Notes under the pieces: generated by a model | Database searches by the model: none | What the model saw: only the letters and a program-made list of their open reading frames with translations | What the model was told of the DNA's origin: nothing | Shown: piece after piece, positions 18,404 to 30,763 of the stretch | How the letters are laid out: each line of letters begins with the position of its first letter | Numbering within the stretch: the first letter of the stretch is position 1 | Translations under genes and position numbers: made by a program | Origin: an uncultured Rhodospirillaceae bacterium | Lineage (GTDB): Bacteria; Pseudomonadota; Alphaproteobacteria; GCA-2731375 | Assembly (NCBI GenBank): GCA_964462145.1 | Contig: CAYWYB010000002.1 | Span: 1 to 47,979, forward strand | Reading direction: 5' to 3' | DNA: 47,979 nucleotides

Positions 18404-21094
18404 TCAGCTGGCCTCTTGTATGCGGGTTTCGCGTAGGATCGCCTTGATTTCCATACGGCAAGAGCCGCAGTTGGTGCCGGCGTTCAGGGCATTACCGATG
18501 GCATCGACCGTGTTGCAGCCGCCCATGGTTGACGCTTCGATGATTTGGTTGCGTCCGACTTCGAAGCAGGCGCAGACTATGGTGCCGGGATCCGGCTCGG
18601 CACCGGCGGACCTGCCAGCCAACAATCGCAACCGCTGGGTGGGATCAGCAAACTCTGCGTCTAACTGTTCACTGGCCCAGGCGCGGGGAACTGTTATAGC
18701 CTCGGCAGCTACGAACAGCGCGCCCAGGAGTTTTTGGCCTTGAAAACAGGCGAAACGGTGCTGCCCCGCCTGTGCGTCATGGTAGGCAAGCAGTTCCGCG
18801 CCGGCGGTGTCGGTGATCTGCAACAAATCTTGGACAAACGCCGTCCAGTCTTCGGGCGGGCGTTTTCCGGCAAGCTCCATACGCCAACCGGTGCCGGCGG
18901 GCGCCATGGACCAATAGTCCCCGAACCGCTGGCTTGGCTTTGCTGCCATGAGGGCAAGACCGTGCCAAGCAGCCGTGAATGGCGCGATGGCGACGTTGCC
19001 CCGCTTGAATTCAGGTTGGCCGGAAACCGGATCGAGGTTGGCCGCGATCAAGGCGTTGACGCGCCCGTCACTGGCAAATTGATCGTTCCAATGCATGGGC
19101 ACAAAGATCGAGCCGGGCCGCTGCCGCGTCGTCTGCCGAACGCGAACTATAATTGACCCATGGGCGCTGCGGACCCGGGCCAGGGCCATATCCCGCAGTC
19201 CGTATTGCGCGGCGTCGTGGGGATGCACATCGACAAAGGGCTCGGACAGATGCTGCATCAAGCGCGCAGATTTGCCGGTCCGCGTCATGGTGTGCCATTG
19301 GTCGCGAATGCGCCCGCTGTTCAGAACCAGCGGGTAAGCGGCTGACTGCGCCTGGCCGGGTTCGGTATAAACCGTCGCCACAAAACGGGCGCGGCGATCC
19401 GGGGTAAAGAAGTTTCCATTGGCAAAAAATCGGCGTGGCTTTGCCTTATGGCCGGCGACCATGGGCCATTGAAACGGCTGCAGGCGATCGTAGTCATCAG
19501 CGGAAATCGTGTCATGGGCGGAGATGTCAAAATCCCGCGTACCGTCGTTGCGGAAGCCGGACAGTGCCGCATATTCCGAATAGATCCGAGACGGTTGTTC
19601 ATGGCCGAAAGCATCGGCAAAGCCCATGCGGCGGGCGACTTCCTGGATGATCCACCAATCGGGCCGTGCCGCACCGGGCATCGGCAGGAACGAACGTTGC
19701 CGCGAAATGCGGCGCTCCGAATTCGTCACAGTGCCGCTTTTTTCGCCCCAGGCGGCGGCGGGCAGCAGAACGTCCGCCTGGGCCGTTGTATCGGTATGGC
19801 GGGTCACGTCTGAGACCACGACAAAGGGACAGGCTTCCAATGCCGCGCGCACGCTATCAACCTCGGGCAGGCTATCCAGCGGATTCGTCGCCATGATCCA
19901 CAGCGCCTTGACGCGGCCATCGCGTACGGCCTCGAACAATTCGACCGCCTTTAGGCCGGGTTGTTCCGCCAGATTGGTGCTGCCCCAGAAATCGCCGACC
20001 AGGGCGCGGTGTGTGTCATTTTCAATATCCATGTGGCAGGCAAGCTGGTTGGCAAGGCCGCCGACCTCGCGTCCGCCCATGGCATTCGGCTGGCCGGTGA
20101 CCGAGAATGGCCCCATGCCGGGGCGGCCAATACGGCCCGTCAACAGATGGCAATTGATGATGGCATTGACCTTGTCCGTGCCGCTGCGGGATTGATTGAC
20201 GCCCTGGGAATAGACGGTGACCACGCGCTCGGTCCCTGCGAACAGATCGTAAAATTCCTGCAGCGCCGTGGGTTCAAGTTCCGTAAGCCGTGCGACATCG
20301 GCATTGCCAAAAGATTGAGCCGCCACCAACGCCGCATCCAATCCATTCGTGTGTCCATCGACATAGCCACGATCCATGGCGCCTGTATCGTGCAGATGCG
20401 CCAGCAGGCCATTAAACAGGGCGACGTCCGAACCGGGCTTCAACGGCAGATGCAGATCGGCGGCTTCCGATGTCGCGGTCTGGCGGGGATCAATGACGAC
20501 GATCTTGGTGTCGGTCTGATCCCGCGCCGCTGCAATGCGCTGAAACAGCACCGGATGGCACCAGGCCAGGTTGGAGCCAACCAGGACAATGACATCTGCC
20601 AACTCAAGATCTTCATAGCAACCCGGCACCGTGTCGGAGCCGAAGGCCCGCTTGTGTCCGGCGACCGAAGACGCCATGCAAAGCCGGGAGTTGGTATCGA
20701 TATTGGCGGAGCCGATGAAACCCTTCATCAGTTTGTTGGCCAGGTAATAGTCTTCGTTAAGCAATTGACCGGAGACGTAGAACGCGACCGAGTCCGGACC
20801 ATGCGCCGCGATGGTCTCCTGGAAGCGGTCCGCCACCTGGCCCAGCGCGGTATCCCAATCGGACGGCGCACCGTCTACAATTGGCTGCAGCAGCCGATCG
20901 TCCAATGACAAGGTTTCGGCCAGCGCAGTGCCTTTGGAGCAAAGGCGCCCGTAGTTTGAGGGATGCTCCGGGTCGCCTGTTATTTCCGTACTGCCATCGG
21001 CTCGAGTGGTGGCCAGAATGCCGCAGCCCACCCCACAATAGGGGCAGGTTGTCTTAACAGTCGTGCCGCACTTGGAACCAGTACCCTTGGTCAT
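18404..21094 (-). CDS. nasA: Assimilatory nitrate reductase catalytic subunit with a C-terminal BFD-like 2Fe-2S domain
   Basis: N-terminal CPYCGVGCG 4Fe-4S motif, a MopB core, and C-terminal CACFEV...CGSCRMEI. The ATG at 21094 lies 4 nt after the nirD stop. Confidence 0.9.
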   Translation of the reverse strand: MTKGTGSKCGTTVKTTCPYCGVGCGILATTRADGSTEITGDPEHPSNYGRLCSKGTALAETLSLDDRLLQPIVDGAPSDWDTALGQVADRFQETIAAHGPDSVAFYVSGQLLNEDYYLANKLMKGFIGSANIDTNSRLCMASSVAGHKRAFGSDTVPGCYEDLELADVIVLVGSNLAWCHPVLFQRIAAARDQTDTKIVVIDPRQTATSEAADLHLPLKPGSDVALFNGLLAHLHDTGAMDRGYVDGHTNGLDAALVAAQSFGNADVARLTELEPTALQEFYDLFAGTERVVTVYSQGVNQSRSGTDKVNAIINCHLLTGRIGRPGMGPFSVTGQPNAMGGREVGGLANQLACHMDIENDTHRALVGDFWGSTNLAEQPGLKAVELFEAVRDGRVKALWIMATNPLDSLPEVDSVRAALEACPFVVVSDVTRHTDTTAQADVLLPAAAWGEKSGTVTNSERRISRQRSFLPMPGAARPDWWIIQEVARRMGFADAFGHEQPSRIYSEYAALSGFRNDGTRDFDISAHDTISADDYDRLQPFQWPMVAGHKAKPRRFFANGNFFTPDRRARFVATVYTEPGQAQSAAYPLVLNSGRIRDQWHTMTRTGKSARLMQHLSEPFVDVHPHDAAQYGLRDMALARVRSAHGSIIVRVRQTTRQRPGSIFVPMHWNDQFASDGRVNALIAANLDPVSGQPEFKRGNVAIAPFTAAWHGLALMAAKPSQRFGDYWSMAPAGTGWRMELAGKRPPEDWTAFVQDLLQITDTAGAELLAYHDAQAGQHRFACFQGQKLLGALFVAAEAITVPRAWASEQLDAEFADPTQRLRLLAGRSAGAEPDPGTIVCACFEVGRNQIIEASTMGGCNTVDAIGNALNAGTNCGSCRMEIKAILRETRIQEAS

Positions 21095-21098
21095 CTTG

Positions 21099-21446
21099 TC
21101 AGGCCGCCCGTGCCGCCGCCAATGCCGCCAGGTCGAGGAGGATGCGGCCCTCGGCAAGTTTGAGCGAAAATGTCTTAACCCGGCCCTCGTCGGCGCCCTG
21201 CGCCTCGCCGGTCTCCAGACTGATGACCCAATTGTGCAGGGGGCATGTCACGGCCTTACCATGCACGATGCCCTGACTCAAAGGACCGCCGCCATGGGGG
21301 CAACGATCTTCAATGGCGAAAACTTCATCCGGGGCACTGCGGAACACCGCCAGGCAACCGGCGGGCGTCTTGATCACCCGGGCGCCGCGCACGGGAATAT
21401 CATCAAGCGGGCCGACGTCGACCCAGTTTTCTTCTTTCAGTTTCAT
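21099..21446 (-). CDS. nirD: Nitrite reductase small subunit (Rieske-like)
   Basis: A 115 aa protein with CPHGGGPL...CPLHNW motifs. It overlaps the nirB stop by 4 nt. Confidence 0.9.
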   Translation of the reverse strand: MKLKEENWVDVGPLDDIPVRGARVIKTPAGCLAVFRSAPDEVFAIEDRCPHGGGPLSQGIVHGKAVTCPLHNWVISLETGEAQGADEGRVKTFSLKLAEGRILLDLAALAAARAA

Positions 21447-23893
21447 TCCGCCGCCTCCAAGGTGACAAGATTGGCAAGTGGGGCAAACTCGCGGCTGCCG
21501 GGACCCATCGTTCGTTCAGCCCAGGGGTCCGACTGCGAGAACTTCTGCGAATGGACGAAGCGTTCGAATAGCGCCTGGCGCCGATCTGCATCTTCCAGCA
21601 AAAGCGTTCGAATGGTGTCGATACCGACTCGGCGGGCCCATTTGTAGATACGCTCGAGATAGTGGCCCTGTTCCCGATAGAGCTGCACCAGGGCAACAAT
21701 CATCTCCAACGCCTCGTCCTCGGTGGCGACCTTACCCAGGACCTCGGTGCCCTTGATGTCCAACCCGGCGGCGCCGGCGAAATGGATCTCGTAGCCGCTG
21801 TCGATGCAGATCACGCCCACATCCTTGCATGTGGCCTCCGAACAGTTTCGCGGGCAGCCCGATACCGCCATCTTGACCTTGGCCGGTGTCCACGAACCCC
21901 ACATGAATTTCTCGATCCGCATACCCAGGCCGGTGGAATCCTGTGTGCCGAAGCGGCACCAATCCGTTCCCACGCAGGTTTTCACCGTGCGCAATGCCTT
22001 GCCATATGCATGTCCCGACACCATGCCGGCGGCATTCAGGTCGGCCCACACGGCGGGCAGGTCTTCCTTTTGCACGCCCAGCATATCAATGCGTTGACCG
22101 CCCGTGCATTTGACCGCTGGAATGTCGAATTTGTCGACCACATCGGCGATGGCGCGCAATTCGTCCGCGCTGGTCATGCCGCCCCACATGCGGGGCACGA
22201 CGGAGTAGGTGCCGTCCTTTTGGATGTTGGCGTGTACCCGTTCGTTGATAAAGCGCGATTGGCCATCGTCGACATATTCGCCGGGCCATGTCGCCAGCAG
22301 ATAGTAGTTCAGGGCCGGTCGGCATTTTGCGCAGCCGCCCGAACTTGTCCATGCCAGCGCCTGCATGACATCGGGGATGGCTTTGAGTTTCTTGGCCACG
22401 ATCAGGTGGCGGATGTCCGCATGCCCCAGTTCCGTACAGCCGCACATGGGCTGGGTGCCGCTGGGATCATAGGCATCCCCCAATGTCGTGGCGAGCAGGC
22501 CTTCGACCAGGCCGGTACAAGTGCCGCACGAGGCGGAGGCCTTGGTATGCGCCCTGACATCATCAAGGGAGGTCAGGTTCTTGCCGTTGATGGCGGTAAC
22601 GATTTGGCTTTTGCAGACGCCGTTGCAGCCACAGATCTCTGCATCATCGGGCAGGGCGGCAACGGCTGCCATAGGGTCGGGCTGTGCGCCCCCAGCGTAG
22701 GCGGGACCAAAAATCAGAGTCTCGCGCATATCCGATATATCGGTGCTGTCCCTGATCAGTTGGAAGAACCAGGCACTGTCCGAGGTATCGCCATACAGCA
22801 CCGCGCCAATGACCGTATTGCCCTCGAGAACCAGGCGCTTGTATATACCGCCCTGGGCATCCCGCAGGACGATTTCGTCGCGATCGTCACCGTCCTCGAA
22901 ATCACCGGCGGAAAACAGATCAACCCCGGTTACCTTCAGTTTCGTGGCCAATGCGGTTTCCGTGAAACCATCGCCTTCAACACCGGCCAGCCGGGCCGAT
23001 AGTACGCTTGCCATGGCATACAGCGGGGCGACCAGACCATAGACGTTACCGCCGAATTCAACACATTCGCCGACCGCGAAAATATCGGGATCAGAGGTCT
23101 GCATGTGCGCATCGACCAGAATGCCCCGATTTGTGTCGATACCCCCAGCCTCAGCCAGGGCGGCGTTGGGCCGGATGCCCACAGCCATGATGACGATCTT
23201 GGCATCGATCTCGGTGCCATCGTCCAAACGCACGCCTTTTACATAGTCATCGCCGATGATCTCCTTGGTATTGGCGGACGTGATGACATTAATGCCCCGC
23301 GCCTCCAACTCACGTTGCAGCAGATGCCCCGCTGTCGGATCCAATTGCCGTTCCATCAAGGTTGGTCCTAGGTGGACCACCGTAACATTCATGCCCCGCT
23401 CTTTAAGGCCGGCGGCGGCCTCCAGCCCAAGAAGCCCGCCGCCGATTACAACGGCGTCGCCACCCGACTGCGCCGCGATCAACATGGCCTTCACATCGTC
23501 CATGTCGCGATAGGTCAGCACGCCCGGCAAATCGTGTCCGGGCACCGGAATGATAATGGGCACGGAGCCCGTGGCGATCAGCAACTTGTCGTAAGGGGCG
23601 GTGGTGCCGTCTTCTGACGTGACGACCTTGGCGTCCCGGTCGATGTTGGAGACCTTTCGCCCCTTTAGAAGGCGGACGCCATGTTGTTCGTACCAAGTGT
23701 CGCCATGGATGACGATTTCCTCGTATGACTTTTCACCGGAGAGTACCGGGGACAGCAGAATTCGATCGTAGTTGGTGCGCTGTTCGGCATTAAAGATTGT
23801 TACGTCGTAGGCATCCGGCGCGCTTTCAAAAAGCCGGTCCAAGACACGGCCCGGGGCCATGCCGTTGCCAATTACCACAAGTTTCTGCGTCAT
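21443..23893 (-). CDS. nirB: NAD(P)H-dependent nitrite reductase large subunit
   Basis: FAD/NAD fold (KLVVIGNGMAPG), a BFD-like CGCNGVC segment and the sirohaem/4Fe-4S motif (TCVGTDWCRFG...SGCPRNC). The start is placed at the ATG at 23893 (MTQKLVVIG). Confidence 0.95.
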   Translation of the reverse strand: MTQKLVVIGNGMAPGRVLDRLFESAPDAYDVTIFNAEQRTNYDRILLSPVLSGEKSYEEIVIHGDTWYEQHGVRLLKGRKVSNIDRDAKVVTSEDGTTAPYDKLLIATGSVPIIIPVPGHDLPGVLTYRDMDDVKAMLIAAQSGGDAVVIGGGLLGLEAAAGLKERGMNVTVVHLGPTLMERQLDPTAGHLLQRELEARGINVITSANTKEIIGDDYVKGVRLDDGTEIDAKIVIMAVGIRPNAALAEAGGIDTNRGILVDAHMQTSDPDIFAVGECVEFGGNVYGLVAPLYAMASVLSARLAGVEGDGFTETALATKLKVTGVDLFSAGDFEDGDDRDEIVLRDAQGGIYKRLVLEGNTVIGAVLYGDTSDSAWFFQLIRDSTDISDMRETLIFGPAYAGGAQPDPMAAVAALPDDAEICGCNGVCKSQIVTAINGKNLTSLDDVRAHTKASASCGTCTGLVEGLLATTLGDAYDPSGTQPMCGCTELGHADIRHLIVAKKLKAIPDVMQALAWTSSGGCAKCRPALNYYLLATWPGEYVDDGQSRFINERVHANIQKDGTYSVVPRMWGGMTSADELRAIADVVDKFDIPAVKCTGGQRIDMLGVQKEDLPAVWADLNAAGMVSGHAYGKALRTVKTCVGTDWCRFGTQDSTGLGMRIEKFMWGSWTPAKVKMAVSGCPRNCSEATCKDVGVICIDSGYEIHFAGAAGLDIKGTEVLGKVATEDEALEMIVALVQLYREQGHYLERIYKWARRVGIDTIRTLLLEDADRRQALFERFVHSQKFSQSDPWAERTMGPGSREFAPLANLVTLEAAE

Positions 23894-23999
23894 TTCCGTA
23901 CCGGCAGCTGCCGTTCCCTGAATTTCACTGCTTTGCCTGGGAGATCTCATCGCGGGCGGCAATATTGCAGCGCACAATGAAATCCCTGCTCTCTTCCAA

Positions 24000-24014
24000 G
24001 CAAGAGCTGTGCCA
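24000..24014 (-). promoter_or_regulatory. Sigma-54 (-24/-12) promoter directed at nirBD-nasA
   Basis: The minus strand reads TGGCAC-AGCTC-TTGC, an exact match to TGGCAC-N5-TTGC. The -12 element lies about 107 nt upstream of the nirB ATG. Confidence 0.7.
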
Positions 24015-24122: not shown

Positions 24123-24156
24123 AAAAAATAGGCGAAAATATATGCGCCTATTTTTT
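24123..24156. promoter_or_regulatory. Perfect 12-bp inverted repeat (AAAAAATAGGCG-N10-CGCCTATTTTTT) between the two sigma-54 promoters
   Basis: The arms at 24123-24134 and 24145-24156 are exact reverse complements. Related TAGGCG motifs occur at 24156-24161 and 24245-24250. Confidence 0.6.
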
Positions 24157-24207
24157 AGGCGAAGAATGAAGTCTTTATATTTCAATGCCTTAGCGCGTTT
24201 CAAAAGT

Positions 24208-24222
24208 TGGCACGAATATTGC
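24208..24222 (+). promoter_or_regulatory. Sigma-54 (-24/-12) promoter directed at narK and the kinase gene
   Basis: The plus strand reads TGGCAC-GAATA-TTGC, an exact consensus match, 64 nt upstream of the narK ATG at 24286. Confidence 0.7.
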
Positions 24223-24285
24223 GACGCAACAAAAGACGGGCGCATAGGCGTTCACTTCAGTACCGGCAGTAAATGGGAACACGCA

Positions 24286-25764
24286 ATGTCAGTTAGCAAG
24301 GGCGTACTTAACCCCCTCAATCTGAAAGATCCGAAAATACGCACCCTGCATTTCACCTGGGTCGCCTTCTTCATCTCGTTTTTTGTCTGGTTCAACCACG
24401 CGCCGCTGATGGCCTCGATCCGGGATACCTTCGGGCTGAGCAAGCAGGAAGTCATTGCCCTGCTCATTCTGAATGTGTCGCTTACCATCCCTGCGCGGAT
24501 AATCGTTGGCATGCTGGTGGACAAGCTTGGCCCACGGATCGTCTACTCAGTATTGCTGGTCATTTCTGGTCTGCTGTGCGTTGCCTTTGCCCTCGCCGAT
24601 AGTTTCGAGGCCATGGCGGTAACACGGTTCCTGCTTGGATTTGTCGGGGCCGGTTTTGTCATCGGTATTCGCATGGTGGGCGAATGGTTCCCGGCCAGGC
24701 AGGTTGGTGTTGCCGAAGGCATATACGGCGGCTGGGGCAATTTCGGCTCCGCCGCCGCGGCCATGACCCTGCCGACATTGGCATTCTTCTTCGGCGGCGA
24801 AGACGGCTGGCGCTGGGCCATCGGCTGTACCGGGGCCGTCGCGATTATCTACGCCGGCATTTATTATAAATCCGTGCGCAACACGCCCAAGGGCTCGACC
24901 TATTTCAAACCCAAAAAGACCGGCGCCATGGAGGTCACATCAAAGCGCGACTTCTTCATCTACATTTTCATGCTGGCGCCAATGATGCTGGCCCTTGGCG
25001 TGCTTGCCTGGAAGTTGGGACCGGGCAATCTATCCATGCTGTCTGCGACGGCGACCAATGGGATCTATGGCGTTCTTGCCGCCCTCTACGGCTATCAGGT
25101 CTATCAGGCCTGGAAAATCAACCGGGACGTTTTCAGGAGATCCGTACCGCAGATCCACCGCTACAAATTCAAGCAGGTCGCCGTGCTCGATCTGGCCTAT
25201 TTGGTAACCTTCGGCTCGGAACTGGCGGTGGTCTCCATGCTGCCCCTGTTCTTTATGGACACGTTTGGTCTGTCCACCGTCATGGCGGGACTGTTGGCGT
25301 CGGGCTATGCGTTCATGAACCTTGTTGCCCGACCGGGCGGCGGCCTGCTTTCGGACCGCTTTGGCCGCAAACGAACCTTGTTGATCCTATTAACGGGGCT
25401 GGCCTGCGGCTATCTCGCCATGTCGCAGATCACCTCGAGCACCTGGCTGCCCCTGGCGATCATCACCACCATGGCCTGCTCGTTCTTTGTTCAGGCTGGA
25501 GAAGGCGCGGTGTTTGCCATGGTGCCCATTGTCAAACGGCGCATGACCGGCCAGATCGCCGGCCAGGTCGGTGCCTATGGCAGCGTCGGCGCTGTGACGT
25601 TTCTGACCGTGCTATCGTTCGTGACGCCGCAGCTGTTTTTCCTCATCATTGGCGCCACGGCCATTGTCACCATCGTCGCGACACTGCTGTTCTTGGACGA
25701 ACCAAAAGGCCAGGTGGCCGAAGAGATGCCTGACGGCAGCATAGCCATGATCGACGTGGGATAG
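24286..25764 (+). CDS. narK: MFS nitrate/nitrite transporter (NarK/NrtP type)
   Basis: A 12-TM MFS profile with nitrate/nitrite porter signatures ([20 protein letters not shown]). The start is placed at the ATG at 24286 ([11 protein letters not shown]). Confidence 0.9.
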
Positions 25765-25786
25765 ACGCCATGACCGAGATGCCAAA

Positions 25787-27502
25787 ATGAGCGGCGGGCC
25801 GGACGTCGTCATCGGGCAATGTTCCATTGCCGGGCGTAAGGCGCGCAACGATGATTCCTATGGCGTCTTGATTCCCGAGGGTCCTCTGCTTTTGACCAAG
25901 GGCATCGCCATGGCCATCGCGGACGGCATGTCCTCGTCCGAAGCGGCGAAAGAGGCCAGCGAAACCTGCGTCAAAAGCTTTCTCGACGACTATTTCTCCA
26001 CCCATGAAAGCTGGACCGCGAAAAAATCCGTCGCCGCCGTACTAAAGGCCACCAACAACTGGCTCTATGCCCAGGGACAAACCGTCTATCTTTCGAACCG
26101 TGGCATGGTCACGACGTTTTCGGGCCTCGTCCTGAAGGCCGGCATGGCGCACGTCTTCCATGCCGGGGATACCAGGATATCGTTACTTAGGGATGGCACG
26201 TTGGAGCCTCTGACCCGCGACCACCGGCTCCGCGTCTCGCGCAATCAGGAGTACTTGTCGCGCGCCTTGGGCATCGATCCCGACCTGGAAGTGGATTACC
26301 GCAGCGAGGCGTTGGCCCAGGGCGATGTCCTGGTATTCACCTCCGACGGTGTGCACGACCATGTTGATCCGGGACAAATCTGCAAGATCGTCGGGGGCGC
26401 CGGCGATGATCTGGACGCCGCCGCCCGTGCCATTGTGCAAAGCGCCTTCGACAATGCCAGCGAGGACAATCTCACTTGCCAGCTTGTCAAGGTGCTTGAT
26501 CCAGGCCGAATTGATGAAAACAGTCATCTTCGGCAATTGACGGCGTTGCCGTTTCCACCGGACCTATCGCCGGGCATGACGTTCGAGGGCTATCACATCA
26601 TTGCTGAGTTGCATGCCAGCAAACGCGTTCAGGTCTATTTGGCGGCTGATGTGGCGAGCAAGGCAAGGGTGGTCATCAAAACGCCCTCGGTCAACTACGA
26701 GGACGACCCGGCCTATATCGAAATGTTCACGCGCGAGGAATGGGTCGGGCGCCGCCTGCAAAGTCCCCATGTTGTCCGCGTGGTACAGGATCGGGGGCCC
26801 AAGCGTTTTCTCTACTACGTAACCGAATTCATTGACGGCGATACCTTGCGGATTTGGATGGAGAAGAACCCAAAACCGAAAACATCAGAGGTTCGCCGCA
26901 TCGCCGAACAGATCGCCATCGGTCTTCGCGCCTTTCACCGTAAGGATATGGTGCATCAGGACCTAAAGCCCGAGAACATCATCATTGACGAATACGGTAG
27001 CGCAAAAATCATAGATTTTGGTTCGACGGGCATTGCGGGTTTGGATGAAATTGACAGCCCATCTGATATCCCAACCTTGGTTGGCACCCTGGGTTATACG
27101 GCGCCCGAATACCATCTGGGGGAGAAGCCGACCAATCGTAGCGACATTTTTTCCCTCGGTGTCATCGTCTATGAAATGCTGACCGGCAAGCTGCCCTATG
27201 GTGAAGGATTTACCAGTGCGAAGGCAGCCTCGCGACTGACATCTACCGCCGCTTCCACTCATGATCCGTCGATACCAACTTGGGTCTCGGCAACCTTGGC
27301 CAAGGCAACCCATTGCGATCCTGGCAAACGCTACGATGCGCTATCTGCTTTTATTTACGACCTCGGCCGGCCTAATTCGAACTTGGAACAAGTCTCGGTT
27401 CGCCCGTTGATAGAGCGTCATCCGCTAGCATTCTGGAAATGGCTGGCTGTTGCTTCGTTGTTAATCAATCTTGCTCTTCTCTATGCCCTGAACGCCCTAT
27501 AA
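25787..27502 (+). CDS. Bifunctional PP2C-type Ser/Thr phosphatase plus Hanks-type Ser/Thr protein kinase, C-terminally membrane-anchored (571 aa)
   Basis: The N-terminal approximately 240 aa carry PP2C motifs (RNDDSYG, IADGMSS, VFTSDGVHD, ASEDNLT). The kinase has VIKTP (Lys), HQDLKPENI, DFG and GTLGYTAPE motifs. A terminal TM helix is present (FWKWLAVASLLINLALLYAL). The gene starts 22 nt after narK. Confidence 0.85.
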   Translation: MSGGPDVVIGQCSIAGRKARNDDSYGVLIPEGPLLLTKGIAMAIADGMSSSEAAKEASETCVKSFLDDYFSTHESWTAKKSVAAVLKATNNWLYAQGQTVYLSNRGMVTTFSGLVLKAGMAHVFHAGDTRISLLRDGTLEPLTRDHRLRVSRNQEYLSRALGIDPDLEVDYRSEALAQGDVLVFTSDGVHDHVDPGQICKIVGGAGDDLDAAARAIVQSAFDNASEDNLTCQLVKVLDPGRIDENSHLRQLTALPFPPDLSPGMTFEGYHIIAELHASKRVQVYLAADVASKARVVIKTPSVNYEDDPAYIEMFTREEWVGRRLQSPHVVRVVQDRGPKRFLYYVTEFIDGDTLRIWMEKNPKPKTSEVRRIAEQIAIGLRAFHRKDMVHQDLKPENIIIDEYGSAKIIDFGSTGIAGLDEIDSPSDIPTLVGTLGYTAPEYHLGEKPTNRSDIFSLGVIVYEMLTGKLPYGEGFTSAKAASRLTSTAASTHDPSIPTWVSATLAKATHCDPGKRYDALSAFIYDLGRPNSNLEQVSVRPLIERHPLAFWKWLAVASLLINLALLYALNAL

Positions 27503-28090: not shown

Positions 28091-30763
28091 TTACATGGCT
28101 GAATTCTGCGGCAGGCTGAGGCGGAAATAGCTGCTGTCATCGTGATTGAATTCTATCGTCAGGTCGCCGTTCATGGCACGCATGATCGCGCGGCTGATGG
28201 GCAATCCCAGGCCGGCGCCATAGATCAAATCCGTTTGATTGCCCCTGGCAAATTTTTCAAATACCCTGCTGGCGTTCTCGCGGCTGACGCCGCCGCCGTT
28301 ATCAGCCACGTCAATCCGGACAACGCCGGCGAATAAGTCGGTTCGAACAATAATTTTCGGCGCCTCCGCGTCGTTATATTTGACGGCATTGGAAAGGATG
28401 TTGATCAGAACCTGATGCAGCCGGTCCGTATCGGCCAATACGCTTGGGTTGCCCAGACCAGGCAGGAAACTGACATCAATCCCCTGGCTCTGGGTCATGC
28501 CGGAGACCGTATCCAGGGCCGAGGTAATCGCCTTTTCGACCCGCACCGGCGCCAGTTTCAGGTTGCTGCTGCCGCCTTCCAGGCGGTTGAGATCAAGGAT
28601 CTCGTCCAACAGACGGGTGAGGCGGATACTTTCATCGTTGATAATCGACACGTAGTGCTCCCGTCTGACCGGGTCGATCCGGTCATCGCCCATCAGGATC
28701 TCGGAGAATGAGCGAATGGAAGTCATGGGCGTGCGCAGTTCGTGGCTGACCTGGGTGAGGAATTCATCCTTTTGCACATCGACGGCGCGCAGGCGCTCGT
28801 TTACGTCGCGGAGCTGGTGGGCGGTTTGTTCAAGCTCCTCGGATTTTTCCGCCAACTGCCGCGACGTTTCAATCAACTGCAGGGTTTCATCGGCAATATC
28901 GATCAGTTCCGTCATCCCGACAGTTTGCCGGCCGGCAATGCGGGTCACCATGGCGTGGGCGGAAGCGGCCCCGATGGAACCGGCCAACTCGCGCTCCAGC
29001 CGGGCAATAACGGCGTCGGTGGCATGGGGCAGGCCGTCGCCCTGACCTTGCTGCCGCGCCATTTCATCAAACAGCCGGCTGGCGGGACCACCGCCCAATA
29101 TGCGCTGGGCAAGGACGAATAGATCTTCGGTACTGGCCTCGCTGGTGGTCAGGCCCGAAGGGGCGCCGCCGGCAGAGCGATAAACATCAACGAACAGAGT
29201 GCCCTGAAGGCGTTCCAGCACGTCCCGGTCGGTCAATAGGGAAACGATAACAAACGCGAATGCATTGCCCCCGACACTCCAGACCACCGCGTGAACCAGG
29301 GGATCCAGCGATGACAGGCCGAGCAGCGTTTGCGGCCGCAAGGCGGCGATGCCCCACGGTCCATGTTCGATCGACGCCGCGCTCAAGATAAAGTCGCCGC
29401 CGAAACTGGGCAGGAAAAGCGTGTAGGCCCAAAGCACAAAGCCAATCAGCAGACCCGTGATGGCGCCGGCCCGCGTCGCGCCGCGCCAAAAGATGCCCCC
29501 CAGCAGACTGGGCAGAAACTGCGCCACGCCGACAAAGGCGATCAAGCCGATCGCGGCCAGGGCATCGGAGCCGCCGCTAATGCGAAAGTAAAAGAACCCC
29601 AGCGCCAATATCACGGCAATGCTGATCCGCCGCGAGATCAGCAACAGCCGTCGCACATCGCCGCTGACCGCGCGGCTGGAGGCCGACAGGGACAGCGATA
29701 TGGGCATGACGATATGGTTTGAAACCATGGTCGACGTCGCGATGGCGGCGACGATGACCATGGACGTGGCCGAGGAAAAGCCGCCAAGATAGGCCAACAA
29801 GGCAAGCTCGTGGCGCTCCTCGGCCAGCGGCAGGGTCAGCACGAACAGATCAGGGTTCGAGCCTTCGGGCATGACCTGCAAGCCGACCAGGGCAATCGGC
29901 ACGATGAACAGGCACATGCCGAACAGATACAGCGGAAACAGCCAGGATGCGGTGGCCAGATGGCGCTCCTCGATGTTTTCCACCACCGTGACCTGGAACT
30001 GCCGCGGCAGACAGATGATCGCCGTCGCGGAAAGAAATGTCAGGGCAACCCAACGGGGACCGAAAATATCATTCGCGCCCTGCAATTGCTCGATAGGGAC
30101 ATCGGCAAAAACCTGGCCAAGCCCGCCCGCTACTTCAAAGGTGGCATAAACGCCGACCGCAATCAGGGCGACCAGTTTGACAATGGCCTCGAACGCAATC
30201 GCGGCCACGACGCCGTGATGACGCTCGTTTGCGTCCAGGTTGCGGGTACCAAAAATAATCGTGAACAACGCCATGCCGGCCGCGATCCAAAATGCCGTGG
30301 TCGCCGCATCCGCTTCCTGCGCGATGACCTGATAGGAAGACGTCACCGACTGCAGTTGCAGGGCAATATAAGGCGTGGTGGCCATCACCGCGATGACGGT
30401 GACAATAACGGCGAGGCTAGGGCTTTTGCCGTAGCGCGAGGAGATCAAATCCGCGATGGACGTTATGCGGTGGGCCCGCCCGATACGGACCAATTTGCGC
30501 AGCAACCACCACCAACCGATAAAGACCAGCGTTGGCCCCAAATAGATCGTAAAAAATTCCAGGCCATTCCGGGCCGCCGAGCCCACGGCACCGTAAAAGG
30601 TCCAAGAGGTACAGTAGACCGAGATCGATAATGTATAGATGACCGGAGACTGCAGCCAGCGAATGGGCCGGCGCCGGGTTCGCCGGTCAACCACGAACGC
30701 GATGGCGAACAACAGACCGACGTAGCCGAGGCAAACCCCCAGAATTGTGTTTACGGATAACAT
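28091..30763 (-). CDS. Sensor histidine kinase with an N-terminal sodium:solute symporter (SSF/SLC5) domain (890 aa, CbrA/CrbS-like architecture, no receiver)
   Basis: About 500 aa of multi-TM symporter-like sequence, then a coiled-coil region, the H-box SHELRTPMTSI, and HATPase N/G boxes (NAVKYN, DNGGG, GLGL). Confidence 0.9.
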   Translation of the reverse strand: MLSVNTILGVCLGYVGLLFAIAFVVDRRTRRRPIRWLQSPVIYTLSISVYCTSWTFYGAVGSAARNGLEFFTIYLGPTLVFIGWWWLLRKLVRIGRAHRITSIADLISSRYGKSPSLAVIVTVIAVMATTPYIALQLQSVTSSYQVIAQEADAATTAFWIAAGMALFTIIFGTRNLDANERHHGVVAAIAFEAIVKLVALIAVGVYATFEVAGGLGQVFADVPIEQLQGANDIFGPRWVALTFLSATAIICLPRQFQVTVVENIEERHLATASWLFPLYLFGMCLFIVPIALVGLQVMPEGSNPDLFVLTLPLAEERHELALLAYLGGFSSATSMVIVAAIATSTMVSNHIVMPISLSLSASSRAVSGDVRRLLLISRRISIAVILALGFFYFRISGGSDALAAIGLIAFVGVAQFLPSLLGGIFWRGATRAGAITGLLIGFVLWAYTLFLPSFGGDFILSAASIEHGPWGIAALRPQTLLGLSSLDPLVHAVVWSVGGNAFAFVIVSLLTDRDVLERLQGTLFVDVYRSAGGAPSGLTTSEASTEDLFVLAQRILGGGPASRLFDEMARQQGQGDGLPHATDAVIARLERELAGSIGAASAHAMVTRIAGRQTVGMTELIDIADETLQLIETSRQLAEKSEELEQTAHQLRDVNERLRAVDVQKDEFLTQVSHELRTPMTSIRSFSEILMGDDRIDPVRREHYVSIINDESIRLTRLLDEILDLNRLEGGSSNLKLAPVRVEKAITSALDTVSGMTQSQGIDVSFLPGLGNPSVLADTDRLHQVLINILSNAVKYNDAEAPKIIVRTDLFAGVVRIDVADNGGGVSRENASRVFEKFARGNQTDLIYGAGLGLPISRAIMRAMNGDLTIEFNHDDSSYFRLSLPQNSAM

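What the first reader, a model, noticed from the sequence alone, without database searches (positions are those of the whole stretch)
25787..27502. Membrane-anchored PP2C-phosphatase/Hanks-kinase fusion, apparently co-transcribed with the nitrate transporter
One polypeptide combines a complete-looking PP2C domain, a complete Hanks kinase domain (Lys, HQDLKPEN, DFG and APE motifs all present) and a C-terminal TM anchor. It starts 22 nt after narK and lies downstream of the same sigma-54 promoter. The usual proteobacterial nas regulators, NasS/NasT or NasR, are absent from the block. To my recollection, a Ser/Thr kinase gene of unknown role occupies an equivalent position in some Pseudomonas nas clusters, and no function has been established for it. 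Opposing activities fused next to a transporter suggest a self-resetting phospho-switch. Its target could be NarK, by analogy with phospho-regulation of eukaryotic NRT transporters, or the reductases.
Basis: partly seen in the sequence, partly recalled or inferred. Interest (0 to 1): 0.6.

Follow-up and report, generated by a model that had tools for sequence, protein, structure and literature searches.

The report
Nitrate channel's tethered kinase-phosphatase partner
The gene after the nitrate transporter encodes a membrane-tethered enzyme that can both add and remove protein phosphates; relatives of this enzyme almost always sit beside a nitrate or nitrite channel gene, so it is probably that channel's private regulator, a role proposed before and still untested.

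Summary
ORF 25787-27502 encodes a 571-aa protein with a PP2C phosphatase, a Hanks-type Ser/Thr kinase and one C-terminal membrane helix. It starts 22 nt after narK and lies downstream of an exact sigma-54 -24/-12 match. All PP2C metal ligands and all kinase catalytic residues are conserved. The glycine-rich loop, however, is replaced family-wide by L-H-x-S-x-R-S-x-V-Y.

It belongs to a large, already annotated family: NCBI "bifunctional protein-serine/threonine kinase/phosphatase", the PA1782/ppkB type of Pseudomonas nas clusters. This scan has met the family before on other DNA. I found no functional study.

New here:
- The conserved partner is the channel, not the reductases. In 52 of 61 loci a long NarK, a short NarK or an FNT channel gene is adjacent.
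- About 90% of window-type NarKs and 95% of the paired FNT subfamily have the fusion next door.
- Fusion clades track the channel class, and genomes with two paralogues place each beside its own channel.
- The only catalytically dead clade has lost the channel.

Best reading: a dedicated reversible phospho-switch on the channel (probability about 0.45). Candidate sites are the NarK loop T205 and tail S485. This is a new member of a known kind, of moderate interest.

The parts
24208..24223 (+). Sigma-54 type -24/-12 promoter match (TGGCAC-N5-TTGC) facing narK and the fusion
   Evidence: 1 mismatch to TGGCACNNNNNTTGCW, and exact to TGGCAC-N5-TTGC. It lies inside the over-long narK ORF call, so narK must start downstream.
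23999..24014 (-). Divergent sigma-54 type promoter match facing nirB-nirD-nasA
   Evidence: 0 mismatches.
24286..25764 (+). narK, a long NarK/NNP-type MFS nitrate/nitrite transporter (492 aa from ATG 24286)
   Evidence: TIGR00886 E 1e-97. The start was set from the promoter position and the homologue alignment. The AF2 model has pLDDT 86 and pTM 0.86, with the last helix at 448-469.
24874..24942 (+). NarK central cytoplasmic loop (aa 197-219) with the subfamily-specific [10 protein letters not shown]; T205 (24898-24900) is invariant. Candidate phospho-acceptor or docking element.
   Evidence: Invariant P201, T205 and Y206 in A2. The loop has low pLDDT at 201-210. The motif is absent from the 45-47% identity NarK tier, which is never linked to a fusion.
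25693..25761 (+). NarK C-terminal cytoplasmic tail (aa 470-492), E-P-x-G-x-x-A-E-x-x-x-D-G-[ST]-x-x-x-I-x-V, modelled as a small beta-hairpin with S485 (25738-25740) at the turn. Candidate phospho-acceptor or docking element.
   Evidence: Invariant P473, G475, E479, D483, G484 and I489. The position is Ser or Thr in 91 of 96 distinct long NarKs. The hairpin is modelled as E476-480 and E486-490. The unlinked 45% tier has a different tail.
25765..25786 (+). 22-nt narK-fusion spacer, with no terminator-like or promoter-like site
25787..27502 (+). Tail-anchored bifunctional PP2C phosphatase / Hanks Ser/Thr kinase (571 aa, P0001)
25802..26500 (+). PP2C (PPM) phosphatase domain, aa 6-238; metal ligands D23, D46, D128, D187, D227
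   Evidence: Foldseek matches PppA, Stp1, tPphA and PstP with TMt 0.80-0.84.
26573..27370 (+). Ser/Thr kinase domain, aa 263-528; K298, E317, H390-Q-D392, N397, D410-F-G, A-P-E441, D453, R515; non-canonical P-loop at 274-284
   Evidence: Foldseek matches PknB, Stk1 and PknA with TMt about 0.8.
27404..27499 (+). Conserved juxtamembrane motif (P-L-x-E-R-x-P-x-x-F-W) followed by the C-terminal transmembrane tail anchor (helix aa 546-570, nt 27422-27496)
   Evidence: The tail anchor is present in all 57 family members examined; in 56 of 57 the tail's best 19-aa hydropathy window exceeds any window in the rest of the protein (L070: tail 1.38, rest 1.59). R544, P546 and W550 are nearly invariant. 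Helix in the model.
21443..23977 (-). nirB (NAD(P)H nitrite reductase large subunit); the start codon is uncertain and probably lies downstream of the TTG
   Evidence: TIGR02374 E 1e-271, with the profile starting at aa 33.
21099..21446 (-). nirD (nitrite reductase small subunit)
   Evidence: TIGR02378 E 4e-27.
18404..21157 (-). Assimilatory nitrate reductase (NasA/NasC type, Mo-bisMGD, with a C-terminal BFD-like 2Fe-2S domain)

Best explanation
What it is: the gene encodes a tail-anchored enzyme whose phosphatase and kinase domains both face the cytoplasm. It is transcribed together with narK from an NtrC/sigma-54-type nitrogen-starvation promoter.

What it most likely does: it is dedicated to the NarK channel made from the same messenger. 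Held at the membrane by its C-terminal helix, the kinase phosphorylates a cytoplasmic element of NarK and the fused PP2C removes the phosphate. The candidate elements are the subfamily-specific central loop (T-P-K-G-S-T205-Y-F) and the C-terminal hairpin (D-G-S485). Nitrate and nitrite uptake could then be switched quickly and reversibly after translation, for example shut off when ammonium returns, without waiting for transcription.

Shown: the architecture, the intact catalytic residues, the near-obligate and paralogue-specific pairing with a channel gene, and the channel elements specific to the paired subfamilies.

Inferred: co-transcription, physical contact, NarK as the substrate, the direction of the effect, and the physiological signal.
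For: (1) Architecture and active sites. PP2C plus kinase plus tail anchor. Ten catalytic residues are identical in all 54 family members outside the PPase/PFK-linked clade described under (6).

(2) Counted from the fusion side, over 61 loci from about 45 genera. A NarK-long, NarK-short or FNT gene is directly upstream on the same strand in 45 loci. It is adjacent in another orientation in 7 more. At least 14 loci have a channel (with or without cyanase) and the fusion, with no NirB or NasA within 8 kb.

(3) Counted from the channel side. Of 55 informative long NarKs at 55% identity or more, about 46 have the fusion directly downstream, and 4 more have one porin gene in between. The 45-47% identity NarK tier is never linked. 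Of 39 informative FNTs at 62% identity or more, 37 have the fusion adjacent; FNTs at 51% or less do not.

(4) An independent sample of named genomes. In 57 of 65 informative loci (Hyphomicrobium, Methylocystis, Methyloligella, Rhodomicrobium, SAR324, Shewanella) a long NarK lies directly upstream.

(5) Phylogeny. Fusion clades track the partner class: the short-NarK clade and the FNT clade each have 100% support. Genomes with two fusions place each beside its own channel (G323, G296, G280, G247, G083, G219, G379).

(6) A natural control. The one clade that lost the channel neighbour (next to pyrophosphatase and PFK genes; L051, L053, L060) has also lost PP2C D23 and D187 and kinase E317 and D392.

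(7) Channel elements. Each paired channel subfamily has its own conserved cytoplasmic Ser/Thr-bearing element:
- Long NarK: loop T205, and tail D-G-[ST] with S/T in 91 of 96 sequences.
- Short NarK: R-W-R-T-T-W-G, which is absent from the non-adjacent paralogues in L035 and L036.
- FNT: T-H-[VY]-[KR]-T-x-P-[KS]-R.

(8) Operon signals. A 22-nt gap, no terminator, and a sigma-54 promoter upstream.

(9) No sensor domain exists besides the two catalytic domains and the anchor, so the input must come through a protein partner or through metabolites acting on the catalytic domains.
Against: - There are no phosphorylation, interaction or expression data for any family member; no RNA run holds this DNA.
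- The three partner classes share no common motif, and MFS and FNT are unrelated folds, so one recognition mode cannot hold for all.
- S485 follows a D-G pair at the tip of a predicted beta-hairpin, so its Ser/Thr conservation could be purely structural.
- The glycine-rich loop is non-canonical, so kinase activity, although likely from the other invariant residues, is unproven.
- Four long NarKs and two FNTs of the paired subfamilies are not next to a fusion.
- Many sampled genomes come from one over-represented family (f38), so the percentages overstate independence.
Confidence: 0.45

Rival explanations
1. The channel is the sensor, not the substrate (a 'trigger transporter' arrangement). The fusion reads the transport state of its cognate channel through membrane contact. 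It then phosphorylates or dephosphorylates another protein, such as a transcription or antitermination factor, a PII-type protein, or a reductase.
For: The same pairing evidence applies as for the best explanation. The fusion has no sensor domain of its own. The juxtamembrane motif and tail anchor are conserved whatever the partner's fold. This would explain why no common phospho-motif is shared by MFS and FNT partners. In this genome no NasS/NasT nitrate-specific regulator was found, which leaves room for a different nitrate signal path.
Against: No candidate downstream target co-occurs with the fusion across loci. Two-gene channel-fusion cassettes stand alone in at least 10 loci. The fusion coexists with NasS/NasT in Pseudomonas-type loci (L036, L052, L057, L059), so it is not a general replacement for them.
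Confidence: 0.27
2. The target is an assimilatory enzyme (NirBD or NasA) or a general nitrogen-metabolism protein. The membrane anchor and the channel adjacency merely reflect co-expression under nitrogen limitation.
For: NirB, NirD or NasA lie within 8 kb in about half of the loci, including the window.
Against: At least 14 loci have a channel (with or without cyanase) and the fusion but no reductase gene within 8 kb. The fusion phylogeny tracks the channel class, not the reductase content. Genomes with two paralogues place each one beside a different channel.
Confidence: 0.1
3. It has a non-catalytic role, as a scaffold or assembly factor for the channel. The kinase is a pseudokinase because it lacks the glycine-rich loop.
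For: The glycine-rich loop is replaced family-wide by L-H-x-S-x-R-S-x-V-Y, and about half of the members are non-RD (HQD).
Against: K298, E317, D392, N397, D410, D453 and R515, and all five PP2C metal Asp, are invariant in the 54 members outside the PPase/PFK-linked clade (L051, L053, L060). They decay only in that unlinked clade. The replacement P-loop is itself conserved, which argues for selection rather than decay.
Confidence: 0.08
4. It is a chance or merely syntenic neighbour with no functional relation to nitrate uptake.
For: Nine of 61 loci lack an adjacent channel.
Against: The pairing was counted from both sides in two independent samples, across two proteobacterial classes and SAR324, with three channel classes and paralogue-specific placement.
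Confidence: 0.03

Closest known systems
PA1782 / PpkB-type 'bifunctional protein-serine/threonine kinase/phosphatase' of Pseudomonas nas clusters (nasST-nasA-ppkB-nasDEC-cobA; PMC3596284, PMC8560001)
   Same: It has the same three-part architecture: PP2C, kinase and C-terminal tail anchor. It holds the same position directly after the nitrate transporter gene. Homology is full-length: L058 from Pseudomonas sp. GOM7 and L062 are about 30% identical with E about 1e-77 to 1e-80. Both bear the same NCBI name. Both are functionally uncharacterised.
   Different: The window protein belongs to the lineage partnered with long NarK (492 aa), whereas the Pseudomonas lineage is partnered with a short NasA-type MFS (about 400-425 aa) that carries a different tail motif, R-W-R-T-T-W-G. 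The Pseudomonas clusters also have NasS/NasT, and here none was found. Here narK and the fusion diverge from nirBD-nasA instead of being co-linear with them.
Separate Hanks kinase / PP2C phosphatase pairs of bacteria (PknB-PstP, Stk1/StkP-Stp1/PhpP, PpkA-PppA)
   Same: These are the closest solved relatives of each half, by sequence and by fold. They share the logic of a cognate kinase and phosphatase acting on the same substrates.
   Different: Those pairs are two proteins. Their kinases have an N-terminal kinase domain, a mid-protein TM segment and an extracellular sensor (PASTA, or vWA/FHA partners), a canonical G-x-G-x-x-G loop and an RD catalytic loop. Here both activities sit in one chain in the order phosphatase then kinase, there is no extracytoplasmic domain, the P-loop is non-canonical, and the catalytic loop is HQD.
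Phospho-regulation of eukaryotic nitrate transporters (Arabidopsis NRT1.1 by CIPK23; Hansenula polymorpha Ynt1 by Npr1, as cited in PMC3596284)
   Same: It works like this if the best explanation is right: a Ser/Thr kinase modifies a cytoplasmic loop or tail of a nitrate transporter, and so tunes uptake to nitrogen status. The long NarK here has a conserved Ser/Thr-bearing central loop, which is where Ynt1-type NNP transporters are modified (from my own knowledge of that literature).
   Different: There is no homology of the regulators beyond the kinase fold. Here the kinase is encoded in the same operon, is fused to its own phosphatase and is membrane-anchored. Nothing has been tested experimentally.
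PII phosphorylation control of nitrate uptake in cyanobacteria (PphA/tPphA, a PP2C, dephosphorylates PII-P)
   Same: tPphA is among the best structural matches of the PP2C half. That system also links a PP2C to short-term control of nitrate and nitrite uptake (established knowledge).
   Different: The target there is the soluble PII protein and the kinase is unknown. No glnB/glnK gene travels with the fusion in the loci examined.

Membership tests
PPM/PP2C Ser/Thr phosphatases | Conserved metal-binding aspartates in motifs 1, 2, 8 and 11 (R-x-x-N-E/D-D; D-G; D-G; D-N), plus G-D-S/T-R | tested here: met
   D23, D46-G47, G127-D128-T-R130, D187-G188 and D227-N228 align to Stp1, MspP and PppA. They are invariant or nearly invariant in 54-57 relatives. 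The Pfam PP2C_2 and NCBIfam Stp1 matches lie below the equivalog cut-off but are significant. The fold matches PppA, Stp1, tPphA and PstP with TMt 0.80-0.84.
PPM/PP2C Ser/Thr phosphatases | Mn2+/Mg2+-dependent phosphatase activity | not testable with these tools
   Needs an enzyme assay.
Hanks-type (eukaryote-like) Ser/Thr protein kinases | Subdomain II Lys, III Glu, VIb catalytic Asp and Asn, VII DFG, VIII APE, IX Asp, XI Arg | tested here: met
   K298, E317, D392, N397, D410-F-G, A-P-E441, D453 and R515 align to StkP and PknB. They are invariant in the family.
Hanks-type (eukaryote-like) Ser/Thr protein kinases | Subdomain I glycine-rich loop G-x-G-x-x-G-x-V | tested here: not met
   The window has L-H-A-S-K-R-V-Q-V where StkP has G-R-G-G-M-A-D-V. 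The family consensus is L-H-x-S-x-R-S-x-V-Y. It is therefore an atypical member of the fold, and activity is unproven.
Hanks-type (eukaryote-like) Ser/Thr protein kinases | RD catalytic loop (H-R-D), which implies activation-loop phosphorylation control | tested here: not met
   H-Q-D in the window. Across 57 members Q occurs 29 times and R 27 times. The window protein is a non-RD kinase.
PA1782/PpkB-type bifunctional kinase/phosphatase (NCBI name 'bifunctional protein-serine/threonine kinase/phosphatase') | One chain with an N-terminal PP2C, a central kinase and a C-terminal tail anchor of about 555-600 aa | tested here: met
   More than 7000 near-length relatives carry the same Pfam pair.
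PA1782/PpkB-type bifunctional kinase/phosphatase (NCBI name 'bifunctional protein-serine/threonine kinase/phosphatase') | Full-length sequence homology to the Pseudomonas nas-cluster protein | tested here: met
   L058 (Pseudomonas sp. GOM7, WP_268177798) and L062 align over residues 7-566 at 29-31% identity. They belong to the same blast cluster and the same tree. PA1782 itself was not retrieved, so its identity with this family rests on the locus layout and the literature.
PA1782/PpkB-type bifunctional kinase/phosphatase (NCBI name 'bifunctional protein-serine/threonine kinase/phosphatase') | The gene lies beside a nitrate/nitrite channel gene in a nitrogen-assimilation context | tested here: met
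   In the window narK lies 22 nt upstream. A channel gene is adjacent in 52 of 61 loci.

The most novel reading that the evidence does not exclude
Bacterial nitrate, nitrite and cyanate-type anion channels of two unrelated folds (MFS NarK and pentameric FNT) each carry a private, co-inherited, tail-anchored kinase-phosphatase. This enzyme gates the channel by reversible Ser/Thr phosphorylation of a cytoplasmic loop or tail. It would be the first Hanks-kinase-controlled transporter module in bacterial nitrogen uptake, and the missing mechanism for rapid ammonium shut-off of nitrate uptake in proteobacteria.
Probability: 0.4. Interest if true: 0.75.

Novelty: new member of a known kind. Interest (0 to 1): 0.5.

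Why it matters
Nitrate uptake by heterotrophic and methylotrophic bacteria is a major term in marine and soil nitrogen budgets. Its transcriptional control (NtrBC, NasST, NasR) is well studied. How uptake is switched within seconds is not established for NarK- or FNT-type channels in proteobacteria.

This family is widespread. About a quarter of a 401-genome Pseudomonadota sample carries a full-length copy, and the protein database holds more than 7000 relatives. It is almost always welded genetically to one channel gene, keeps both active sites intact, and has never been tested.

The comparative data gathered here turn a vague 'kinase in the nas cluster' into a specific and cheap experimental programme:
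- The channel, not the reductases, is the partner.
- Each paralogue has its own channel.
- Specific candidate loop and tail residues are named.
- A natural dead-enzyme control clade exists.

For this particular window the feature is an ordinary member of that family.

Tried and rejected
- The Pfam ANTAR family search of the own genome was uninformative, because the control genomes did not ring either. I replaced it with NasT and NasS protein queries. Their negative result is limited by the 88% completeness of the assembly.
I used the single protein instead, which reaches only close relatives.
- Expression: no RNA holder is listed for this DNA, so co-transcription could not be checked and read laying was not used.
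- Literature: 'PA1782' plus 'nitrate' gave 0 papers. 'ppkB' plus 'nitrate' gave only the UW4 genome paper. Searches on FNT with kinase and on nas with kinase found no functional study. Subscription papers, such as the 2012 P. aeruginosa nas antitermination study that I recall, are not in the library.
- My crude gene caller missed the fusion in 4 loci and an FNT in 3 loci (L039, L078, L083). I corrected these with tblastn, Pfam and the genome search coordinates.
- A first regular expression for the NarK tail miscounted and was replaced.
- The careful tree search did not finish, so the quick IQ-TREE tree with SH-aLRT support is what I cite.
I therefore could not test whether the PP2C active site faces the kinase activation loop.
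- I looked for a phospho-motif shared by all three channel classes and found none.
- I considered PII (GlnB/GlnK) as the target, because tPphA is a close PP2C relative. I dropped it to a minor rival because no PII gene travels with the fusion.
Full report
**1. What is in the window**

ORF 25787-27502 (+) is open and encodes 571 aa.
- Pfam finds PP2C_2 at aa 39-237 and Pkinase at aa 282-518. NCBIfam finds an Stp1-type PP2C at aa 18-234.
- The neighbours on the minus strand are an assimilatory Mo-nitrate reductase (18404-21157), nirD (21099-21446) and nirB (21443-23977).
- On the plus strand a NarK-family MFS transporter ends at 25764, 22 nt before the fusion.
- Two of the four best matches to the sigma-54 -24/-12 consensus in the 48-kb window sit back to back in the nirB-narK gap. 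One lies at 24014-23999 on the minus strand and one at 24208-24222 on the plus strand.
- The plus-strand match lies inside the long narK ORF call. The real narK start is therefore ATG 24286, giving 492 aa, which fits the homologue alignment.
- No terminator-like or sigma-70-like site separates narK from the fusion.
- The source is a seawater MAG of 5.3 Mb in 529 contigs, 88% complete. It is an alphaproteobacterium whose closest relatives for this protein are Hyphomicrobiales and Rhodospirillaceae-type MAGs.

**2. Are both enzymes intact?**

Kinase:
- Against solved StkP and PknB, the kinase has the subdomain II Lys (K298), the alpha-C Glu (E317), the catalytic loop H-Q-D392-L-K-P-E-N397, D410-F-G, A-P-E441, D453 and R515.

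Phosphatase:
- Against Stp1, MspP and PppA, the PP2C has R-x-x-N-D-D23, D46-G, G-D128-T-R, S-D187-G and D227-N.

Family conservation:
- Across 57 relatives from about 45 genera, and across alignment A1, all of these residues are invariant or nearly invariant.

Two departures from the textbook kinase are family-wide:
- The glycine-rich loop is replaced by a conserved L-H-x-S-x-R-S-x-V-Y.
- About half the members, including this one, are non-RD (HQD).

Because the replacement loop is conserved rather than decayed, I read the protein as an atypical but probably active kinase. That remains unproven.

Structure:
- AlphaFold2 with 54 sequences gives mean pLDDT 91 and pTM 0.85, with a terminal helix at 546-570.
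- Foldseek returns PknB, Stk1 and PknA for one half and PppA, Stp1, tPphA and PstP for the other.

Membrane anchor:
- In 56 of the 57 members the most hydrophobic 19-aa window lies in the last 45 residues; L070 is the exception (tail 1.38, rest 1.59).
- The segment is preceded by a conserved P-L-x-E-R-x-P-x-x-F-W motif.
- There is no extracytoplasmic or other sensor domain.

**3. What travels with it?**

I fetched about 8 kb on each side of 60 full-length relatives found in an even sample of 401 genomes of the phylum. I called genes crudely, clustered the neighbours and identified the clusters.

The one constant neighbour is a small-anion channel gene of three kinds:
- a long NarK like the window's;
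- a short NarK/NasA-type MFS (TIGR00886, E 1e-69);
- an FNT formate/nitrite-type channel (PF01226, E 1e-61), sometimes with cyanase.

| Position of the channel gene relative to the fusion (61 loci, window included) | Loci |
|---|---|
| Directly upstream, same strand: long NarK | 13 |
| Directly upstream, same strand: FNT | 22 |
| Directly upstream, same strand: short NarK | 10 |
| Adjacent in another orientation | 7 |
| Not adjacent | 9 |

- NirB, NirD, NasA, NrtABC, NasS/NasT and CobA come and go.
- At least 14 loci have only a channel (with or without cyanase) plus the fusion, with no reductase gene within 8 kb.

**4. The reverse count**

Long NarK:
- Starting from the window's NarK, 58 hits at 55% identity or more were found in the same 401 genomes, and 55 are informative.
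- About 46 have the fusion directly downstream.
- Four more have one Alginate_exp-type porin gene in between.
- One has the fusion 6 kb away.
- Four are unlinked.
- A separate NarK tier at 45-47% identity is never linked.

FNT (cross-referenced with the coordinates):
- Starting from a paired FNT, 37 of 39 informative hits at 62% identity or more have the fusion adjacent.
- FNTs at 51% or less do not.

Named genomes:
- In an independent sample, 57 of 65 informative loci have a long NarK directly upstream.
- The genera include Hyphomicrobium, Methylocystis, Methyloligella, Rhodomicrobium, SAR324 and Shewanella.
- A Roseibium locus has an FNT instead.

Caveat: one family of small marine genomes (f38) is heavily represented. 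The linked state is nevertheless seen in 13 families for long NarK alone.

**5. Pair specificity**

- A quick maximum-likelihood tree of 57 fusions shows that lineages track the partner class. There is a 100%-supported clade for short NarK partners, which includes Pseudomonas, and a 100%-supported clade for FNT partners. The long-NarK partners form the basal grade that holds the window protein.
- Seven genomes carry two paralogous fusions, each beside a different channel: G323, G296, G280, G247, G083, G219 and G379.
- The only members with substituted catalytic residues are three proteins on a long branch. They sit next to pyrophosphatase and phosphofructokinase genes and have no channel neighbour. 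They have lost PP2C D23 and D187 and kinase E317 and D392.
- Catalysis therefore appears to be under selection wherever the protein sits in a channel or nitrate-assimilation context.

**6. Possible contact or target sites**

Each paired channel subfamily has its own conserved cytoplasmic element that bears Ser/Thr.

Long NarK:
- A central loop [10 protein letters not shown], with T205 invariant.
- A C-terminal tail E-P-x-G-x-x-A-E-x-x-x-D-G-[ST]-x-x-x-I-x-V.
- The tail position is Ser or Thr in 91 of 96 distinct sequences.
- Both elements are missing from the unlinked 45% tier.
- In the AF2 model of the window's NarK (pLDDT 86) the loop has low confidence. The tail forms a small beta-hairpin after the last helix, with S485 at the D-G-S turn.
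- The Ser/Thr preference may therefore be structural, and I treat S485 only as a candidate.

Short NarK:
- Partners carry R-W-R-T-T-W-G right after the last helix.
- Two short-NarK paralogues that are not adjacent to a fusion lack it (L035, L036).

FNT:
- Partners carry T-H-[VY]-[KR]-T-x-P-[KS]-R.

No motif is common to all three classes.

**7. Mechanism**

The most economical reading is this. The fusion is made from the same NtrC/sigma-54-type messenger as its channel. Its tail anchor holds it at the membrane. It acts as the channel's own reversible phospho-switch, with the kinase writing and the fused PP2C erasing. I put this at about 0.45.

The main rival, at about 0.27, is that the channel serves as co-sensor and the substrate is something else. 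It fits the pairing data equally well and would explain the lack of a common motif. It has no candidate target that co-occurs with the fusion.

Reductases as targets (about 0.1) fit poorly with the stand-alone channel-fusion cassettes. A non-catalytic role (about 0.08) fits poorly with the invariant active sites.

NasS/NasT were not found in this assembly. The fusion coexists with NasS/NasT in Pseudomonas-type loci, so it is not simply a replacement for them.

**8. What is known**

- NCBI already names these proteins 'bifunctional protein-serine/threonine kinase/phosphatase'.
- The Pseudomonas sp. UW4 genome paper describes nasST-nasA-ppkB-nasDEC-cobA. It already suggests, by analogy with Arabidopsis and Hansenula, that the kinase may phosphorylate the transporter (PMC3596284).
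- PA1782 is listed as one of three P. aeruginosa Ser/Thr kinases without a known role (PMC8560001).
- Its neighbours PA1783, PA1781, PA1780 and PA1779 are strongly NtrBC-dependent (PMC7214821).
- I found no functional study.
- This scan has flagged the same family on other genomes, and follow-up notes there reached similar conclusions. I reached the PA1782/ppkB link and the pairing independently, and I tested the pairing from both sides here.

**9. Verdict**

The linkage test it proposed is passed strongly, and the transporter is favoured over the reductases as the partner. Phosphorylation of NarK remains an inference, and the idea is not new.
- The locus is a new member of a known, annotated but uncharacterised family.
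- Interest is moderate. It would be high if the channel-gating mechanism were demonstrated.

Noticed in passing
L128:2193-3635 (+); the same layout occurs in L129, G264:C10 and G145:C47: In several small marine gammaproteobacterial MAGs a 480-aa outer-membrane beta-barrel of the Alginate_exp (AlgE-like) family (PF13372, E 1e-38) is inserted between narK and the fusion. It may be a nitrate- or nitrite-specific porin that belongs to the same operon.
   Followed up: partly
L051:8043-9785 (+), L053:8004-9797 (-), L060:8043-9800 (+): A long-branch clade of the family sits next to inorganic pyrophosphatase and phosphofructokinase genes and has no channel neighbour. It has lost PP2C D23 and D187 and kinase E317 and D392 but keeps the tail anchor. 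This looks like a doubly dead pseudo-enzyme with an unknown new role.
   Followed up: partly
window 24142-24285: The mechanical narK ORF starts at 24142, but the sigma-54 -24/-12 match at 24208-24223 lies inside it. The true start is most likely ATG 24286, preceded by GGGAA. Automatic annotation may over-extend this gene by 48 codons.
   Followed up: yes
L054, L076, L079, L081 (FNT, fusion and cyanase): In four loci the FNT-fusion pair is joined by a cyanase gene (cynS) rather than by nitrite or nitrate reductases. The paired FNT subfamily may therefore carry cyanate or nitrite, and the fusion is not tied to nitrate as such.
   Followed up: partly
G379:C4:125547-126349 (in L083); G346:C1:2017566-2019266; G073:C37:19377-21107: There are signs of decay or sequencing error in some pairs. 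One FNT is split in two frames just upstream of its fusion. One fusion has a single in-frame TAG. One fusion is split into two adjacent pieces.
   Followed up: no
window 28091-30763 (-): An 890-aa histidine kinase whose HisKA/HATPase part occupies only the last 230 residues lies convergent to the fusion. The long N-terminal part has no Pfam hit at E 1e-3. It shows no conserved linkage to the fusion; its cluster C27 recurs in only one other locus.
   Followed up: no
own genome G000: With protein queries I found no NasT (REC+ANTAR) and no NasS/NrtA-type binding protein in the 88%-complete assembly. Nitrate-specific induction of this nas cluster, if there is any, has no obvious regulator. Both arms seem to rely on sigma-54 promoters.
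   Followed up: partly
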